64,000 bases of DNA from a virus (IMGVR_UViG_3300042569_003232:64001-128000), one strand, 5' to 3'; counted from the stretch's first letter, positions 4,818-49,295 are shown. Translations and numbers: made by a program. The notes: generated by a model not told the origin, from the letters alone.

Positions 4818-4910
4818 TGGTATTTCCGGCTGGATTCGAACCAGCAAATTCGCGCTCTAGAAAAAATGTTTTACCAATGAAAGTTGTACTTTCAATTAAA
4901 CTACAGAAAT
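4818..4910 (-). pseudogene. tRNA-like element, unpaired anticodon stem and hairpin inserted in D-loop
   Basis: Acceptor ATTTCTG/CGGAAAT-ACCA and T-arm GCTGG-TTCGAAT-CCAGC intact. Confidence 0.6.
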
Positions 4911-6415: not shown

Positions 6416-6623
6416 ATTTCAAATCTTTACTTTTTTCTATACTATATGTTTTATTAGAATGAACCAAGATTTGATTTGTGAGAAAATTCATTATTTTTCC
6501 GCCATCTTTCAAAACTATTGTCCATACATCGTTTTCATGCATTCCATTTTCTTTTACATAAATTGCATATCCATCTCCTAATGGAGAGATTACTGGTATC
6601 GGATTCTTAAATTCCGTTATCAT
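6399..6623 (-). CDS. Hypothetical phage protein (start corrected to 6623)
   Basis: MITEFKNPIPVISPLGDGYAIYV...NDVW; upstream part overlaps tRNA-Gln. Confidence 0.7.
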   Translation of the reverse strand: MITEFKNPIPVISPLGDGYAIYVKENGMHENDVWTIVLKDGGKIMNFLTNQILVHSNKTYSIEKSKDLKYESNE

Positions 6624-6626
6624 TTT

Positions 6627-6700
6627 TGGTAGCCCCTGCTGGTTACGATCCAACGCTATTCGGATCAAAACCGAATGTACTACCATTATACTAAAGGGCC
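6627..6700 (-). tRNA. trnQ: tRNA-Gln(TTG)
   Basis: TTCGG-TTTTGAT-CCGAA; variant T-loop ATCGTAA; CCA. Confidence 0.85.
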
Positions 6701-6703
6701 AAA

Positions 6704-6758
6704 TTCAGATTCCAATTTTGTTTCTATACCAAGAATATTTTGTTGCGGTTTGGAATCT
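6704..6758 (-). ncRNA. Hairpin array unit C
   Basis: AGATTCCAA-ACCGCAA-...-TTGGAATCT-GAA. Confidence 0.65.
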
Positions 6759-6760
6759 TT

Positions 6761-6885
6761 TTCAGATTAATATTTTTTTACGGTTCGGGGTGTTGCCATT
6801 ACACTACAACATTACTAGAATGTTGGAAGGAATCGAACCTTCTTTACCAATTGGGATTGTAAGTTTTTATTGCAGTTATTAATCT
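6761..6885 (-). ncRNA. Hairpin array unit B carrying a circularly permuted tRNA module (Y RNA/YrlA-like)
   Basis: AGATTAATA-ACTGCAA ... T-arm, closed acceptor hairpin, D-arm ... TATTAATCT-GAA. Confidence 0.7.
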
Positions 6886-6887
6886 TA

Positions 6888-6949
6888 TTCAGAAGTGTTT
6901 TATCGTCAAAGTAAAAGTTTGATTTTTTTATGTTTGCTGTAACACTTCT
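6888..6949 (-). ncRNA. Hairpin array unit A
   Basis: AGAAGTGTT-ACAGCAA-...-AACACTTCT-GAA. Confidence 0.65.
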
Positions 6950-6960
6950 TGTATATCCTT

Positions 6961-6988
6961 ACTTTACCACTTTTCTCAGAGAAGTCAA
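6961..6988 (-). promoter_or_regulatory. Sigma70-type promoter TTGACT-N16-TAAAGT driving the hairpin array
   Basis: Motif match 11 nt upstream of unit A. Confidence 0.7.
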
Positions 6989-7015
6989 GACTTTTTTGAA
7001 GAATCTTGTACTCAT

Positions 7016-7432
7016 TTAACAATCATATTCAAAACCAAGAGATTTAAATATTTCTTTATTAAGATTTTTCATTTTGATTATATTACAAAATTCTTCAAAT
7101 GTAGAATTTTGTTTACTCATAGCAAAATCATCATTACCAGAAGCATATATAAAATTATTTCTAAAACTTATGCATATTTTATTTCCTCTGTAACAAGGAT
7201 ACCAATCATCAGAGACAGTTATATATGTTTCATGGGAATTTTTCTTATCCTTTTTTATGGATTCAACCATCTGCTTTAATTTCTTTCTGCATGGAACTGG
7301 ATAATTAACTCTTTTCAGCAATTTATAAAAGAAAGGATTTTCATGTGCAAATAAAAAATAATCTCTGCATTGATGAAGGTCTTTTTTCTCTGCCCAAAAA
7401 ACAATTTTTTTCTGTGCTAATTCAAAAGTCAT
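7016..7432 (-). CDS. Hypothetical protein
   Basis: 138-aa ORF, ATGA coupling. Confidence 0.7.
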   Translation of the reverse strand: MTFELAQKKIVFWAEKKDLHQCRDYFLFAHENPFFYKLLKRVNYPVPCRKKLKQMVESIKKDKKNSHETYITVSDDWYPCYRGNKICISFRNNFIYASGNDDFAMSKQNSTFEEFCNIIKMKNLNKEIFKSLGFEYDC

Positions 7433-8308: not shown

Positions 8309-8369
8309 TGGTGGACAATATCGGAATCGAACCGATGAATCAGAGACTCTACCACTGAGCTAATTGCCC
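8309..8369 (-). ncRNA. 61-nt tRNA-like RNA lacking the anticodon arm
   Basis: GGGCAAT/ATTGTCC-ACCA, D-arm GCTC-AGTGGTA-GAGT, 9-nt linker, T-arm ATCGG-TTCGATT-CCGAT. Confidence 0.75.
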
Positions 8370-9131: not shown

Positions 9132-9575
9132 TGGTGGAGGTGAGGGGAGTCGAACCCCTGTGTTTAACAATCTAATTTAACAATTCTACACGCTTAGATA
9201 TTTCGCAATTTCTGAGACTTTGGGTTTGCTGGCATATCAACCGATTTTTTTGAGTCATTACCCGCTATTACAAAAAGCTAATAGCTACCTGCATTTTTTG
9301 TTCTATGTATATTGAAATGCTTTTATACAACCTATTTTTAGACCTCAATAATTTTAATAGTATCCATTATTGTTTAACTTAGGCAACCATTTCCATTTCT
9401 TCGACACCGACGAATTCGTCTGCATTGTTGAAAATGTATTCAGCTTGCGCTAGTAGGGCATTGACTTCTGCGTCTTCTGCTTTTATTTGTTTTGATCAGC
9501 TTTTAAAGTAGCCAACTGATCAACTACTACGTGCTATGTTAATTTCAACCATTAAGTCGAAACCAAAACACCCCC
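9132..9575 (-). ncRNA. ssrA: tmRNA; tag reading frame 9379-9480
   Basis: 5' GGGGGTG...TTTCGAC; 3' T-arm plus CACCTCC-ACCA; G3.U70; tag AEDAEVNALLAQAEYIFNNADEFVGVEEMEMVA*. Confidence 0.92.
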
Positions 9576-20126: not shown

Positions 20127-20197
20127 TGGTCTAGACGATGGGAATTAACCCCACAACCTGTATTCAAACTACCGCTCTCCCATTAAGCTACGCCTAG
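20127..20197 (-). pseudogene. Degenerate paralog of tRNA-Pro
   Basis: Same acceptor 3' strand CGTCTAG-ACCA; 3-bp anticodon stem; T-loop GTTAATT. Confidence 0.6.
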
Positions 20198-21161: not shown

Positions 21162-21243
21162 TGGCACGTCAGAAGAGAATCGAACTCTTAAAGGTAATCA
21201 GTCGTTTTGGAGGCGACCCGCAACCACCACTTGCTGCTGACGT
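21162..21243 (-). tRNA. trnW: tRNA-Trp(CCA) with 11-nt variable loop
   Basis: GTCG(C)-CTCCAAA-(A)CGAC; G73-CCA. Confidence 0.8.
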
Positions 21244-23243: not shown

Positions 23244-23251
23244 AAATTATG

Positions 23252-23333
23252 TTGCTGGGGGAGGATTCGAACCTCCGAGGCTTGCGCAGAAGGTTATGAG
23301 CCTTCCCTGATGACCAACTTCAGACACCCTGCA
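23252..23333 (-). tRNA. tRNA(CAT) with long variable arm
   Basis: GAAGG-CTCATAA-CCTTC; variable TGCGCAAGCCTC; CCA not encoded. Confidence 0.75.
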
Positions 23334-23338
23334 ATTCT

Positions 23339-23367
23339 ATTTTACACCAAGAATAATAGGTTGTCAA
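23339..23367 (-). promoter_or_regulatory. Sigma70-type promoter TTGACA-N17-TAAAAT
   Basis: Motif match at start of the minus-strand block. Confidence 0.7.
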
Positions 23368-45929: not shown

Positions 45930-46604
45930 TCAAAAAGTTCCCGGACCAGTTGAATCAACTTCACTTCCTAGCAAGCCGCGTGTATCTCGACCAAATTCTT
46001 GCTTCATTAATCGAAATACTTCTTTTATATTTTTCTCATTTATATCTGAAATATTAAGATTAAAATTGCTACTTCCTCGTAGCAGACTATTCAATATAAT
46101 TCTCGTCCAATAAACTCTTTTACCATTGTCTAGTTTTTGTTCTTCAGGCAAATCTGAATTCATACTTTTAATTTTCTCAATAATACTTTGCCCTTTAAAT
46201 TCTGGTTGTTCCGTCCATTTTGAACTAACTCCTTCATAACGATCCATTGCCCATTCTACAAATCCTAAAATAGGAAGTATTTTTTTAGTTTTTTCAAAAT
46301 AATCAGGAATTTTTTCAAAAGGAATTAACTGATCTCCGACTTTCATTTTCAAGTTATGAACATCTTTACTGGAAGTATTAAAGTAAATTGCGCGAACTGC
46401 AAGTTTAGCAAGTTCTAATTCTTCTGGAGGAACGATTTCAGCAGGGGCTAATTCTTCTGGGGGCATTTCACCTTCTGGAGGAACACCCTCGTCTGGAGGC
46501 GATTCTTGTGTGTTAGCTGGCGCTTCCTGATTTTGTAATTGACCTTCTTCTGGATTTTCTGCTTCCAGAAATAATTTAGAAATATATAAATCAAAATTAG
46601 ACAT
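45930..46604 (-). CDS. Hypothetical protein with acidic Pro-rich linker
   Basis: 224-aa ORF. Confidence 0.7.
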   Translation of the reverse strand: MSNFDLYISKLFLEAENPEEGQLQNQEAPANTQESPPDEGVPPEGEMPPEELAPAEIVPPEELELAKLAVRAIYFNTSSKDVHNLKMKVGDQLIPFEKIPDYFEKTKKILPILGFVEWAMDRYEGVSSKWTEQPEFKGQSIIEKIKSMNSDLPEEQKLDNGKRVYWTRIILNSLLRGSSNFNLNISDINEKNIKEVFRLMKQEFGRDTRGLLGSEVDSTGPGTF

Positions 46605-47013
46605 TAATTGGTCCTCCTAAGTTTGCTTGTTGGTTTGTTCTATTCTGGAAATATTTTTGAAGAGCAGGAGTTTTCTGAATTTTCATCATTAAATCATTTC
46701 GCTCTTGTGGTGGAGTTTTTGGATCTAACATCATGTTATCATAGTGTGCTGCTACGGCATTTTGGAATTCCGGCATTTTCATTTCACGATCCCAATCTGT
46801 AGATTGATTTTTGAAATATGCACCAACATCAAGTGCAGAATTGTTTTTGTTAGCAGAATTAGATTGTGAGGATGTTGTTGAACGATTCACGGTTGTTGAA
46901 GATGAATTATTATTCTGGGTAACTGCTGGACCTCTATTGGTCAAACCTCCTTGTCCCATAGTGCCTAAACCTTCTTCCATTATTTTTTTAACATACGAAT
47001 CAAACTGTGTCAT
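46597..47013 (-). CDS. Hypothetical low-complexity late protein
   Basis: TATAAATA upstream; N/S/T-rich. Confidence 0.7.
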   Translation of the reverse strand: MTQFDSYVKKIMEEGLGTMGQGGLTNRGPAVTQNNNSSSTTVNRSTTSSQSNSANKNNSALDVGAYFKNQSTDWDREMKMPEFQNAVAAHYDNMMLDPKTPPQERNDLMMKIQKTPALQKYFQNRTNQQANLGGPINV

Positions 47014-47018
47014 AAAGT

Positions 47019-47026
47019 TATTTATA
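47019..47026 (-). promoter_or_regulatory. T4-type late promoter TATAAATA
   Basis: Exact match 5 nt from ATG. Confidence 0.65.
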
Positions 47027-47052
47027 TTAAATGAATTGCGCTTTCTTAAAAT

Positions 47053-49245
47053 TTAGACTATATTATTTTTCATTTCCCAAAATAATTTAAATTTAGGTTT
47101 TTTTAAAAAAGTTTTCCAATTCGAACTCTCTTCTAACGAACTTTGTTTTATTATTTCTTTTATTTTTTCTGAATCTATTATTTTTTCAATCTCTTTTTGA
47201 TTTTCTAATTTTTTATATTCGTTATATATATCTTTCAAATCAGGAGACACTAATAATTCTTGTAAATCATGTTGGTCTAATCCTTTATGACTGTAAAATA
47301 CATTAATATATGATTTTTCTATGTCATCTTTTGCATGAGGAATTACTACAAAAAATATGTCGGCAGATTTAATCGCTAATTTTTTAATATAATCTTCGTT
47401 TATATTTCTGGAATAAAAATTTTTATCATCATCTTTATAAACTAATAATGATGATAATTTCGAACTATCTGGTTCAGCACTTTTCAAATTAAATAAAAAA
47501 TCCAATTTATCGGTTGCTAAACTTTTTGTTAATTTTGGTAAAGATTCATAAATTCTGTCAAATATATAATCATTTATTTTCAATTTTATATTTCTTAATT
47601 TTTCTAATTTACCTCTTACATTTTCATATGACATATCAAATTCATATTTTCCCAATTCTATTCCATGCCAACTATAAATCCCATTTATGATATTCATTTC
47701 TTCAATCATTTGAGATGCTGAAATTTCATTATCATTAATAAATGGGACTTCAAACAAATCGAATAAATTTTCTGTAATTTTCAGAGGCAAAATATGCTGA
47801 TTTTTTATTTTATAATTTGTTGTTAAATTTCCTGTTAAAACATTGATTACTTTTTGAGAAATTGCTGCACATTTATCATAAAACCTAGAAAAATTAAAAT
47901 TCTCTGCTTCCTCCTCATCTAATAAATTTTCATAATATAACGGAAAATTTGCTACTACATTAAAATGATAATTTCCCCTAAAATCGTTTAAACTGATGCG
48001 TATTCTTTCATCATATTTTTTGATATTTTGAAATTTTTCTTGTATTTTTGCCATATATTCCTCATTTTTGTTATTTTGGACTAAAAAATCATTTATAACT
48101 TTTGGAAATTTAATTTTTACTTCAATATCTGTTCTTCCCATTGTTATATCTAAAAATTCATCATTTGAAGATAAGTCATACTCTTCATCTGTTAATCTGC
48201 TCCATACTTCATTTAAAATATCATCATTTATATTTTCTCTAATATCATCTAAAAGTTGTTCCAATCTGTCATCATCTTCTTCTGGTCCAAATTCACTTCT
48301 CAATTCATCATAATCACTTTTTTTTGTTACGTACTGTATATTTTTTCCCCAAATCTTTTTGATATTTTCTTTAACATCATGTCCGCTATCTTCATAATTA
48401 CCTCCTCTTAAAGTTAATCCATTATCCCAATTAAAATCTGAAACATCTTGTTTTTTTGCCCAAGTAGTTACTTGTTGTATGAATAAACTATTATACCTCT
48501 TATTATAAGGAGCATAGACTTTTAAATTAGGAACTGCTAATTCATTTCCTGCTGAATCATTTACCAATCTTATTCTAATTCTTGCTTGTGGATTAATTCC
48601 TTTTAGATTTCTATCATTATCTTTAAAAATTTCTTGTTTTTGTAAATTCTCATCTTTATGCAATTCATAAGTTTGATATTCTTCTTCTGAAACTAAATAT
48701 GCAATTGCTCCTAAATTTCTTGAATCAGATAATGCACAATAAAAATAGTTATTTCCTGGAGTATGACAACTTTTCCAATCAAAATCACTCATTCTAGCCA
48801 CATCAATCGGAGAACGAGAATAAATCACATAATCCGCAGTTGGATTTGCTTGTTCATATTGTTTTTGTAGATTTGTAGTTTTTAATAAATCATCAAGTGC
48901 TTTTATATTAATTTCCAATTTACGTTTTTGTTCTTCGTTTTCTATTGAAGAAAGTGTTTTTGTTAATGTTTCTTTTCTTTTAGTTAAAATTTTTCCCAAA
49001 CGATTTGGATTTTTCTTTTCAATATCAGAAATTTTATATCCTGCCCATTTCTCAAAATCTATTTCGTATTGATCTCCTAATAAATCTTTTAATAATTTTT
49101 GATAACTTGATTTGCCGTATAAAGGTTCAATAGTTCTTAGTTTATTTCCAAAAATTGCATCAAATGGGACTTTATTACTAGTTTTCATATAATCAAGATA
49201 ATATGATGCTATTTCAGAAAATAAATTACTAGATTGTTTTTTCAT
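47053..49245 (-). CDS. Large hypothetical protein
   Basis: 730 aa; SRSPIDVARMSDFDWKSCH motif. Confidence 0.75.
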   Translation of the reverse strand: MKKQSSNLFSEIASYYLDYMKTSNKVPFDAIFGNKLRTIEPLYGKSSYQKLLKDLLGDQYEIDFEKWAGYKISDIEKKNPNRLGKILTKRKETLTKTLSSIENEEQKRKLEINIKALDDLLKTTNLQKQYEQANPTADYVIYSRSPIDVARMSDFDWKSCHTPGNNYFYCALSDSRNLGAIAYLVSEEEYQTYELHKDENLQKQEIFKDNDRNLKGINPQARIRIRLVNDSAGNELAVPNLKVYAPYNKRYNSLFIQQVTTWAKKQDVSDFNWDNGLTLRGGNYEDSGHDVKENIKKIWGKNIQYVTKKSDYDELRSEFGPEEDDDRLEQLLDDIRENINDDILNEVWSRLTDEEYDLSSNDEFLDITMGRTDIEVKIKFPKVINDFLVQNNKNEEYMAKIQEKFQNIKKYDERIRISLNDFRGNYHFNVVANFPLYYENLLDEEEAENFNFSRFYDKCAAISQKVINVLTGNLTTNYKIKNQHILPLKITENLFDLFEVPFINDNEISASQMIEEMNIINGIYSWHGIELGKYEFDMSYENVRGKLEKLRNIKLKINDYIFDRIYESLPKLTKSLATDKLDFLFNLKSAEPDSSKLSSLLVYKDDDKNFYSRNINEDYIKKLAIKSADIFFVVIPHAKDDIEKSYINVFYSHKGLDQHDLQELLVSPDLKDIYNEYKKLENQKEIEKIIDSEKIKEIIKQSSLEESSNWKTFLKKPKFKLFWEMKNNIV

Positions 49246-49266
49246 AAAAATACTTATCGAAAGTTG

Positions 49267-49295
49267 TTGACAACAGATTGCTCATACACTAAAGT
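49267..49295 (+). promoter_or_regulatory. Sigma70-type promoter TTGACA-N17-TAAAGT
   Basis: Points into a 490-nt ORF-free structured region. Confidence 0.55.

What the first reader, a model, noticed from the sequence alone, without database searches (positions are those of the whole stretch)
6704..6988. Tandem array of three hairpin RNA units with a fixed frame (AGA-N6 / ACNGCAA / cargo / N6-TCT-GAA), first in a tRNA transcript
On the minus strand, just downstream of a TTGACT-N16-TAAAGT promoter, three units follow each other 2 nt apart. A: AGAAGTGTT-ACAGCAA...AACACTTCT-GAA (6949-6888). B: AGATTAATA-ACTGCAA...TATTAATCT-GAA (6885-6761). C: AGATTCCAA-ACCGCAA...TTGGAATCT-GAA (6758-6704). tRNA-Gln follows 3 nt later. 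The 9-bp stems differ in sequence but each pairs perfectly (covariation), while ACNGCAA and GAA stay fixed, which suggests a protein-binding or processing site. Interiors vary from ~27 to ~97 nt, and B carries a permuted tRNA. Inference: a modular ncRNA family. The closest known architecture is bacterial Y RNA (YrlA with a tRNA module beside YrlB without one, bound by Ro60/Rsr), but the fixed motif here is not the GNCGAA motif described for YrlA. No Ro60/TROVE gene is in this window.
Basis: partly seen in the sequence, partly recalled or inferred. Interest (0 to 1): 0.9.

Follow-up and report, generated by a model that had tools for sequence, protein, structure and literature searches.

The report
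Phage Y-like RNAs for Ro60-like protein
Three small hairpin RNAs at the head of a phage tRNA operon belong to a widespread phage RNA family, with no published description that I could find, that travels with a distant relative of the RNA-binding ring protein Ro60, so they are most likely that protein's partner RNAs, one of them carrying a scrambled tRNA as cargo.

Summary
On the minus strand at 6949-6704, three abutting units share one frame: a perfect 9-bp closing stem, the word ACNGCAA, a variable interior, then G. Unit B's interior is a circularly permuted tRNA. The same 136-kb lake-water phage record holds two more units outside the window. One lies 90 nt after a 568-aa gene whose predicted fold matches Ro60 over its full length.

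In 78 other viral contigs with this gene, a covariance model finds 163 units, all on the gene's strand, in 71 loci. In five large records, all 15 hits lie within 4 kb of the gene. Gene-less control records have almost none. Searching from the RNA motif alone leads back to the gene.

No Rfam family reaches threshold: YrlA gives no hit, and Dictyostelium Class I RNA gives only sub-threshold hits. A preprint shows that the E. coli phage Bas63 homologue (gp130) counters the Ppl defence and guesses at Y RNAs. I found no description of this RNA family.

Binding and expression are untested. This scan has noted the same RNA-protein pair many times on other DNA. New here: the units sit about 22 kb from the gene, inside tRNA operons.

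The parts
6961..6988 (-). Sigma-70-like promoter candidate: TTGACT (6988-6983), 16-nt spacer, TG (6969-6968), TAAAGT (6966-6961). The expected start is about 4-5 nt before unit A.
   Evidence: It is a pattern match only, and such sites are not enriched in this region. Both hexamers are unchanged in a related strain whose flanks differ at 6990, 6991 and 6997.
6888..6949 (-). Unit A, short form. 5' arm 6949-6941, ACAGCAA 6940-6934, inner hairpin UCAAA/UUUGA 6922-6906, 3' arm 6899-6891, GAA 6890-6888.
   Evidence: Model R1 scores 65.5 bits, E 2.7e-11 (A is a training member). Fold z-score is -2.9. Sub-threshold Rfam RF01414 hit of 23.8 bits.
6761..6885 (-). Unit B, long form. 5' arm 6885-6877, ACUGCAA 6876-6870, permuted tRNA-like cargo, 3' arm 6772-6764, GAA 6763-6761.
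   Evidence: R1 does not find it because of the 97-nt insert.
6784..6851 (-). Permuted tRNA-like module inside B. In order: 3' strand of the anticodon-stem analogue 6850-6847, T arm 6842-6826, acceptor 3' strand 6825-6819, closing loop 6818-6814, acceptor 5' strand 6813-6807, D arm 6804-6790, 5' strand of the anticodon-stem analogue 6788-6784.
   Evidence: ARAGORN calls a tRNA only after un-permuting. 21 of 51 long units in related phages behave the same way, against 0 in controls. Strain variants at 6784 (A to U), 6849 (U to C) and 6812 (A to G) keep or improve the proposed pairs.
6704..6758 (-). Unit C, short form. 5' arm 6758-6750, ACCGCAA 6749-6743, 3' arm 6715-6707, GAA 6706-6704.
   Evidence: R1 scores 43.9 bits, E 1e-6 (C is a training member). 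Sub-threshold RF01414 hit of 18.9 bits.
6627..6700 (-). tRNA-Gln (UUG), 3 nt after unit C. RNase P cleavage at its 5' end would define the 3' end of unit C (inference).
   Evidence: 54.9 bits.

Best explanation
Units A, B and C, with two more units elsewhere in the genome, are partner RNAs of the phage's own Ro60-like ring protein. They are the functional counterpart of Y RNAs.

The constant 'handle' is the docking site. It consists of a flanking A, a 9-bp closing stem that begins A-R-R, the unpaired word ACNGCAA directly after the 5' arm, and a G directly after the 3' arm.

The interior is exchangeable cargo. It is either a small hairpin (A and C, like YrlB) or a circularly permuted tRNA body with a closed acceptor stem (B, like YrlA).

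The units are transcribed at the head of a tRNA operon and are probably released by the tRNA-processing machinery. The ribonucleoprotein would then act in RNA quality control, RNA repair or counter-defence during infection. The cargo would tether or occupy tRNA-recognising enzymes or nucleases.

Shown here: the anatomy, the covariation, the family's spread and its tight genomic linkage to the gene. Inferred: binding, processing and the downstream function.
For: 1. A Ro60-like gene is in the same genome (G000 47431-49137, + strand, 568 aa).
- Pfam DUF7788, E 5.7e-13, and DUF2828 below threshold.
- AlphaFold2 model with pLDDT 82.8.
- The top 11 PDB matches are all Ro60 structures aligned over the full length, including Thermus phage phiLo Ro60.
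- The top five Swiss-Prot matches are Ro60 of mouse, frog, worm, human and Deinococcus.
- tblastn links it to mycobacteriophage genes annotated 'Ro-like RNA binding protein'.

2. A fifth unit lies 90 nt after that gene's stop, on the same strand.

3. Forward linkage. In 78 viral contigs with a homologue, R1 finds 163 units at E<=0.01, all on the gene's strand, in 71 of 78 loci. In five records of 90-391 kb, 15 of 15 hits lie within 4 kb downstream of the gene.

4. Reverse linkage. A blind scan for the handle pattern gave 8 records with a real handle, and 7 of them carry the gene. The exception is a 17%-complete fragment. None of the 26 records with only chance matches carries it. 22 gene-less records (about 1.95 Mb) gave one R1 hit.

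5. Structure. RNAalifold recovers the 9-bp stem, with compensatory changes at all 9 pairs. On 150 hits, 94.6% of cells pair against 61.9% in shuffles, and the covariation score is 0.81 against 0.22 (0 of 500 shuffles reach it), or 0.10 at most when the partners are slid.

6. The short and long (tRNA-like) forms mirror YrlB and YrlA (Chen 2014, PMC4201824).

7. The Bas63 gp130 homologue (BLASTP E 8e-16) has handle units in its adjacent tRNA array. A preprint reports that it counters the Ppl defence.
Against: - No binding, expression or processing data exist. Only DNA runs hold this phage.
- Units A-C are 21.6 kb from the gene and on the other strand, unlike in the five large related records that I searched whole.
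- The protein does not hit Pfam TROVE, and its TM-scores to Ro60 are modest (0.4-0.57).
- The handle does not carry the GNCGAA/CGAA element that the literature links to Ro60 binding.
- The covariation counts rest on units chosen by a pairing-aware descriptor or model.
- Single-sequence fold z-scores are modest (-1.6 to -2.9).
Confidence: 0.65

Rival explanations
1. The units are processing or stability cassettes of tRNA operon transcripts: recognition hairpins for a host or phage RNase that help cut and protect the polycistronic tRNA precursor. They would have no dedicated protein partner.
For: A-C and D sit directly 5' of tRNAs. In Felix O1-like phages the units lie between tRNAs. The conserved nucleotides cluster at the unit boundaries.
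Against: In Leptolyngbya phage Lbo-JY46, five units follow the Ro60-like gene with no tRNA within 4 kb. The units track the gene rather than tRNA clusters. In five large records all hits lie beside the gene, and 22 gene-less phage records gave one hit.
Confidence: 0.1
2. The units are stand-alone decoys: tRNA mimics and hairpins that soak up host tRNA-targeting or RNA-sensing defence nucleases without needing the Ro60-like protein.
For: The tRNA-like cargo is recurrent. The phage invests heavily in tRNAs, a tmRNA and RNA-repair genes.
Against: This does not explain the invariant handle, the fixed 9-bp stem, or the near-obligate linkage to the gene. Short forms carry no tRNA-like part. This reading can also coexist with the main one as the cargo's role.
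Confidence: 0.1
3. Unit B is a permuted tRNA gene that matures into a working tRNA. The handle would be removed and the ends joined by a phage RNA ligase, and the acceptor loop opened, as with the permuted tRNAs of the red alga Cyanidioschyzon (from my own knowledge).
For: The gene order is permuted, with intact T, D and acceptor elements. An RNA ligase gene lies next to the Ro60-like gene.
Against: The anticodon-stem analogue has only 4 pairs here, and no 7-nt anticodon loop could form from the A-rich linkers. Short units carry the same handle but no tRNA at all. ARAGORN's 'anticodons' differ arbitrarily among relatives.
Confidence: 0.04

Closest known systems
Bacterial and mycobacteriophage Y RNAs YrlA / YrlB bound by Ro60 (Rsr) (Chen et al. 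2014, PMC4201824; Rfam RF02553)
   Same: - The terminal stem is formed by the two RNA ends, with a conserved single-stranded word on the 5' side.
- There are two forms: one has a tRNA-like domain with T arm, D arm and a closed acceptor stem in the same permuted order, and one lacks it.
- Several RNAs come from one precursor.
- They are encoded beside a Ro60-type gene on the same strand (in relatives, and for unit E here).
   Different: - The word is ACNGCAA, not GNCGAAN0-1G.
- The Rfam model gives no hit even at E<=10.
- The protein belongs to DUF2828/DUF7788, not Pfam TROVE.
- Units A-C lie 21.6 kb from the gene, inside a tRNA operon.
Thermus phage phiLo Ro60 with Yrl1/Yrl2 (Hu et al. 2025, PMC12135203; PDB 9l5y)
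   Same: It is a phage-encoded Ro60-fold protein with small hairpin RNAs encoded next to it. 9l5y is among the top structural matches of the protein here.
   Different: The phiLo RNAs were picked by a CGAA motif and have no ACAGCAA handle. phiLo Ro60 is a recognisable Ro60 homologue. Binding and a PNPase effect were shown there, whereas nothing has been shown here.
Bas63 gp130 (Felixounavirus), a Ro60-like counter of the Ppl defence (PhageMaP preprint, 10.1101/2024.10.10.617714)
   Same: Same protein family (BLASTP E 8e-16). The gene lies directly upstream of a tRNA array that holds handle units. The authors conjecture that some of the 'tRNAs' are Y RNAs.
   Different: The preprint describes no RNA family, motif or structure. 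The protein is only 24% identical. Whether the Ppl phenotype needs the RNAs is unknown.
Dictyostelium Class I RNAs (Rfam RF01414; Kjellin et al. 2021, PMC7919456)
   Same: - Size of 42-65 nt.
- A short stem joins the two ends, and its sequence covaries.
- A conserved unpaired motif ending ACAGCAA lies directly after the 5' arm.
- The rest is variable and A-rich.
- The conserved ends are AAG... and ...CUG(U).
- It is the best Rfam hit for A and C.
   Different: - Scores are far below the gathering threshold (23.8 and 18.9 against 41.5 bits).
- The stem is 9 bp, not 6.
- The genes are eukaryotic with a DUSE promoter.
- The only known binder is the RRM protein Rnp1A (also called CIBP).
- No long tRNA-bearing form is known.
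- Shared ancestry is untested.

Membership tests
YrlA/YrlB-type Y RNA (RF02553) | GNCGAAN0-1G motif near the 5' end (Chen 2014) | tested here: not met
   The units carry ACAGCAA, ACUGCAA or ACCGCAA at that place, and none of A, B or C contains GNCGAA (motif definition).
YrlA/YrlB-type Y RNA (RF02553) | Match to the Rfam covariance model | tested here: not met
   No YrlA hit at E<=10 over 6600-7050. None at the gathering score in the window or in 10 related loci.
YrlA/YrlB-type Y RNA (RF02553) | Terminal helix formed by the 5' and 3' ends, enclosing a large internal loop | tested here: met
   9-bp stem in all units. RNAalifold and the pair counts agree. Short units also have an inner hairpin.
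YrlA/YrlB-type Y RNA (RF02553) | tRNA-like domain with T arm, D arm and closed acceptor stem (YrlA form) | tested here: met
   Unit B: ARAGORN calls a tRNA only after un-permuting. 21 of 51 long units in relatives do the same, against 0 in controls.
YrlA/YrlB-type Y RNA (RF02553) | Encoded within about 4 kb of the Ro60 gene on the same strand | tested here: not met
   A-C lie 21.6 kb away on the other strand. The feature is met for unit E (90 nt, same strand) and in relatives.
YrlA/YrlB-type Y RNA (RF02553) | Bound by Ro60/Rsr in vivo or in vitro | not testable with these tools
   Needs gel shift, RIP or co-purification.
Dictyostelium Class I RNA (RF01414) | Match to the Rfam model at the gathering score (41.5 bits) | tested here: not met
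   A scores 23.8 bits (E 0.036) and C 18.9 bits (E 0.63). No hit at gathering in 10 related loci holding many units.
Dictyostelium Class I RNA (RF01414) | Short end-to-end stem plus a conserved motif next to the 5' arm, with C6, C9, A10 and A11 invariant | tested here: met
   AC-N-GCAA keeps C6, C9, A10 and A11 in A, B and C (Kjellin 2021, read). The stem is 9 bp, not 6.
Dictyostelium Class I RNA (RF01414) | DUSE promoter element about 60 nt upstream; a dictyostelid nuclear gene | tested here: not met
   This is a phage record with a bacterial-type -35/-10 candidate.
Ro60 / TROVE protein family (for the 568-aa protein) | Pfam TROVE domain (PF05731) | tested here: not met
   No match at E<=1 in the whole record, while the control genomes gave matches. 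The protein hits DUF7788 and DUF2828 instead.
Ro60 / TROVE protein family (for the 568-aa protein) | Helical-repeat ring followed by a von Willebrand A domain (Ro60 fold) | tested here: met
   The model has pLDDT 82.8. Full-length top matches are Ro60 in the PDB (E 1.7e-6 to 1.4e-4, TM 0.37-0.57) and in Swiss-Prot.
Ro60 / TROVE protein family (for the 568-aa protein) | MIDAS-type DxSxS motif in the vWA domain | tested here: met
   D363-T-S365-G-S367. D363 and S367 are invariant and S365 nearly so in 32 homologues. That DxSxS defines a MIDAS site is from my own knowledge.

The most novel reading that the evidence does not exclude
The phage handle RNAs and the Class I RNAs of dictyostelid amoebae are one RNA class. 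They would be related by descent or transfer, or would have converged on the same protein-docking mode. The orphan Class I RNAs would then be Y-RNA-like partners of a Ro60-fold (DUF2828/DUF7788-type) protein in amoebae. A single Ro60-like/handle-RNA system would span phages and eukaryotes.
Probability: 0.1. Interest if true: 0.9.

Novelty: new variant of a known kind. Interest (0 to 1): 0.68.

Why it matters
Ro60 with its Y RNAs is a classic RNA quality-control particle, and its bacterial and phage versions are only now being explored. This finding adds several things:
- A second, apparently undescribed type of partner RNA with a different docking word.
- A modular design: one handle with exchangeable cargo, including scrambled tRNAs.
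- A very wide spread, with the protein family found in more than 1500 proteins and 234 cultured-phage records.

Because the E. coli phage Bas63 carries both the homologous gene, reported to counter the Ppl defence, and handle units, the idea can be tested directly in a standard laboratory system.

This genome also shows that the RNAs can leave the gene's side and settle in tRNA operons. Annotation that looks only near the gene will therefore miss them, and some 'odd tRNAs' in phage genomes may be such RNAs.

Tried and rejected
- **YrlA and Y_RNA membership:** no usable Rfam hit. The one Y_RNA match (14.1 bits, E 5.1) was on the wrong strand.
- **TROVE and RtcB genes:** none by Pfam search in the 136-kb record. 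The Ro60-like gene only showed up through fold comparison, after an earlier scan note pointed to it.
- **Sequence search of solved structures:** nothing relevant.
- **DNA similarity of the region to cultured phages:** no match.
- **More units in the window:** other ACAGCAA or NCAGCAA words (for example 20428, 21237, 23258) have no partner stem and no R1 hit. They are rejected as chance.
- **The 89 nt between the gene and unit E:** not significantly structured (z -0.95).
- **First alignment of only four units:** MAFFT misaligned unit C. This was solved with 36 units.
- **Blind handle pattern scan:** most matches were chance, as expected, and I used them as controls.
- **RNA-seq evidence:** no RNA run holds this phage.
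- **Dictyostelid counterpart of the protein:** none appeared in the Swiss-Prot fold search. The fold-cluster and Atlas searches gave no usable taxa, and Avesson et al. 2011 is not in the paper library. This is unresolved, not negative.
- **Complex prediction:** not used, because it scores protein pairs, not protein-RNA pairs.

Full report
**Setting**

The window is bases 64001-128000 of a 135,915-bp IMG/VR virus record. CheckV rates the record 52% complete. The window has about 31% G+C, 21 tRNA genes by ARAGORN and a tmRNA. DNA of this phage occurs in lake-water metagenomes from 17 studies, and no RNA run holds it.

**The observation**

- Unit A (6949-6888): AGAAGTGTT, ACAGCAA, 34 nt, AACACTTCT, GAA.
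- Unit B (6885-6761): AGATTAATA, ACTGCAA, 97 nt, TATTAATCT, GAA.
- Unit C (6758-6704): AGATTCCAA, ACCGCAA, 27 nt, TTGGAATCT, GAA.
- The spacers between units are 2 nt, and tRNA-Gln starts 3 nt after C.

The 5' frame occurs three times against 0.43 expected. Each copy also has a perfect 9-bp partner. Units A and C contain a small inner hairpin.

The TTGACT-N16-TAAAGT site exists and has a TG (extended -10) element. Such sites are not enriched here, so transcription from it remains an inference. A similar extended -10 promoter-like site precedes another tRNA at about 23365-23335.

**Unit B's cargo**

The interior holds, in this order:
- a T arm (GAAGG/TTCGATT/CCTTC);
- a 7-bp acceptor helix closed by a 5-nt loop;
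- a D arm;
- a 4-bp analogue of the anticodon stem that leads to the handle.

ARAGORN finds nothing in the natural order. When the two halves are swapped, with CCA appended by me, it calls a tRNA with an interrupted anticodon arm.

**More units, and a Ro60-like gene, in the same genome**

The frame pattern and a pairing script found two further units.
- Unit D is at G000 19880-19821 (minus strand), 6 nt before a tRNA-Lys.
- Unit E is at G000 49228-49282 (plus strand). Its stem is AAAACGCAT/ATGCGTTTT, with ACAGCAA, and GAT after the 3' arm.

The 568-aa ORF at G000 47431-49137 ends 90 nt before unit E.
- It hits Pfam DUF7788 (E 5.7e-13) and, below threshold, DUF2828.
- It does not hit TROVE and has no sequence match among solved structures.
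- An AlphaFold2 model built on 32 homologues has pLDDT 82.8 and pTM 0.83.
- Its top 11 PDB matches are all Ro60 structures aligned over 550-600 columns. They include frog and human Ro60 and Thermus phage phiLo Ro60 (E 1.7e-6 to 1.4e-4, TM 0.37-0.57).
- The top five Swiss-Prot matches are Ro60 of mouse, frog, worm, human and Deinococcus.
- The vWA domain keeps a DxSxS motif.
- tblastn also reaches mycobacteriophage genes annotated 'Ro-like RNA binding protein'.

Upstream of the gene lie a small RNA ligase (PF09414) and a DSP-type phosphatase.

**Is the RNA tied to the gene?**

*Forward test.* The protein has 1505 homologues at E<=1e-5. I fetched 78 viral loci that encode one.
- A simple descriptor (stem of 8 bp or more, directly followed by ACAGCAA) gave 92 hits, all on the gene's strand. 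Scrambled control words gave 1-3 hits and most single-base variants 1-10 (TCAGCAA gave 33). A looser run (stem of 7 bp or more, ACNGCAA) gave 133 hits against 8 on reversed sequence.
- The stems are almost always exactly 9 bp.
- A covariance model from 36 short units found 163 hits at E<=0.01 in the 78 loci. All are on the gene's strand, in 71 of 78 loci, mostly within 3 kb after the gene.
- Of the seven loci without a hit, three have long-form units and two have little or no downstream DNA.
- In five whole records of 90-391 kb, 15 of 15 hits lie within 4 kb downstream of the gene.

*Reverse test.* I scanned the viral collection for a handle pattern alone, which returned 80 loci.
- Most matches were chance, with no complementary stem.
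- 8 records had a real handle. 7 of them carry a homologue of the gene, three of them so distant (E about 1e-20) that the protein search had not fetched them.
- The eighth is a 17%-complete fragment.
- None of the 26 records without a real handle carries the gene.
- 22 gene-less records, about 1.95 Mb in all, gave a single weak model hit.

**Structure support**

RNAalifold, run on the MAFFT alignment, predicts just the 9-bp stem, with compensatory changes at all nine pairs. On 150 model hits:
- 94.6% of cells pair, against 61.9% in shuffles;
- 394 cells are changed on both sides, against 115;
- the covariation score is 0.81 against 0.22 (0 of 500 shuffles reach it), and at most 0.10 when the partners are slid.

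Caveat: these units were selected by pairing-aware methods. The independent evidence is the excess over control words, the strand bias and the fixed stem length.

The conserved positions are a flanking A, the first pairs A-U and R-Y, the word ACAGCAA and the G after the stem. Position 3 of the word tolerates U or C, as in units B and C. That is rare elsewhere: 7 and 1 hits against 92.

**Two forms**

Interior lengths are bimodal, at about 20-50 nt and 70-125 nt. Of the 51 long units, none gives a tRNA call in natural order. 21 give one when the interior is doubled, and in every case the call spans the junction, which means a permuted tRNA. Shuffled and reversed controls give none. Unit B is therefore a typical long form. 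The pairing of long and short forms parallels YrlA and YrlB (Chen 2014).

**Variation among strains**

In a related strain's contig that covers the whole array, the changes fall in interiors and flanks and none falls in a handle. The numbers are small, so this is only consistent with constraint, not proof of it. Three changes in unit B keep or improve the proposed pairs: 6784 and 6849 in the anticodon-stem analogue and 6812 in the acceptor stem. One strain has 56 extra letters between unit C and the tRNA, about the size of one more unit.

**Comparison with what is known**

- Rfam has no family for these RNAs. There is no YrlA hit at E<=10. The best hits of units A and C are to Dictyostelium Class I RNA, at 23.8 and 18.9 bits against a threshold of 41.5.
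- Nothing reaches threshold in 10 related loci.
- The resemblance to Class I RNAs is real in anatomy: end-to-end stem, the ACAGCAA-ending motif after the 5' arm, an A-rich variable rest, and AAG/CUG ends (Kjellin 2021). Membership fails, and common descent is untested.
- phiLo Yrl1/2 were defined by a CGAA motif.
- Iyer et al. 2021 mention TROVE proteins with a tRNA-like partner in some jumbo phages.
- The PhageMaP preprint reports that Bas63 gp130 resembles Ro60, counters the Ppl defence, and may bind Y RNAs hidden among the neighbouring tRNA genes.

I verified three points about Bas63:
- bas63_0130 is a homologue of the protein here (BLASTP E 8e-16). I identified it through the Felixounavirus KEP3 gene.
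- The Bas63 tRNA array holds model hits with the handle.
- The closest cultured relative of the gene, Leptolyngbya phage Lbo-JY46, has five tandem units in the unannotated gap right after it.

Full-text searches for DUF2828, DUF7788, Ro60 with phage and Y RNA, and ACAGCAA with phage found no description of this RNA family. The library is incomplete, so this is not proof of absence.

**What is particular to this genome**

In the five large records that I searched whole, the short-form units all sit beside the gene. Here only unit E does. Unit D and the A-B-C array have moved 27.5 and 21.6 kb away, to the other strand. Each sits directly 5' of a tRNA at what looks like the head of a tRNA operon. 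Two of the five handles carry rare variants of the word.

**Relation to earlier scan notes**

The same RNA-protein pairing has been noted by this scan on many other genomes. I treated those notes as leads and re-tested the claims above.

**Mechanism, with status**

Shown:
- the anatomy and the covarying 9-bp stem;
- the conserved word and the two cargo classes;
- the genomic linkage to a Ro60-fold protein, in both directions.

Inferred:
- The protein binds the handle. The fixed 9-bp spacing between the conserved stem base and the word suggests that both are read at once.
- The units are released from the tRNA precursor, with RNase P at the tRNA 5' end and cuts in the 5-nt G-A-W-W-A linkers.
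- The cargo tethers or occupies tRNA-recognising enzymes or nucleases, by analogy with Y RNA tethering of PNPase.
- The particle serves RNA repair, RNA quality control or counter-defence. This rests on the neighbouring ligase and phosphatase genes and the Bas63 phenotype.

I put 0.65 on the partner-RNA reading.

Noticed in passing
window 9132-9575 (-): A phage-encoded tmRNA (89.9 bits) lies in the same tRNA-rich region. tmRNAs also lie next to handle arrays in related loci L055 and L046.
   Followed up: partly
window 8312-8369 (-) and 20130-20197 (-): Two short tRNA-model hits (44.3 and 40.6 bits) that ARAGORN does not call. The first is only 58 nt and appears to lack an anticodon arm.
   Followed up: no
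window 4818-4910, 21162-21243, 23251-23333 (-): Over-long tRNA calls of 82-93 nt with odd arms. They carry no handle word with a partner stem.
   Followed up: partly
L005 325-1399 (G000 46324-47398, +): A DSP-type phosphatase and a small RNA ligase (PF09414, E 2e-32) lie directly upstream of the Ro60-like gene. An R2K ATP-grasp gene and a ribonucleotide reductase lie downstream.
   Followed up: partly
window 6699-6706, in run X12: A related strain's contig has 56 other letters in place of the 6 nt between unit C and tRNA-Gln. That is about the size of one more short unit, so unit number may vary between strains.
   Followed up: no
L079 8540-8755 (+): A group I intron (91.9 bits) lies a few hundred bases after the handle array of a related phage.
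   Followed up: no
window 23335-23365 (-): A TTGACA, spacer, TG-N-TAAAAT promoter-like site lies directly before tRNA-Met. It is the same type as the site before unit A.
   Followed up: no
L205 6654-7046 (Leptolyngbya phage Lbo-JY46, PP438436.1 about 6916-7308): The unannotated 393-nt gap after the Ro60-like gene of this cultured cyanophage is filled by five head-to-tail handle units. It could serve as an experimental system.
   Followed up: yes
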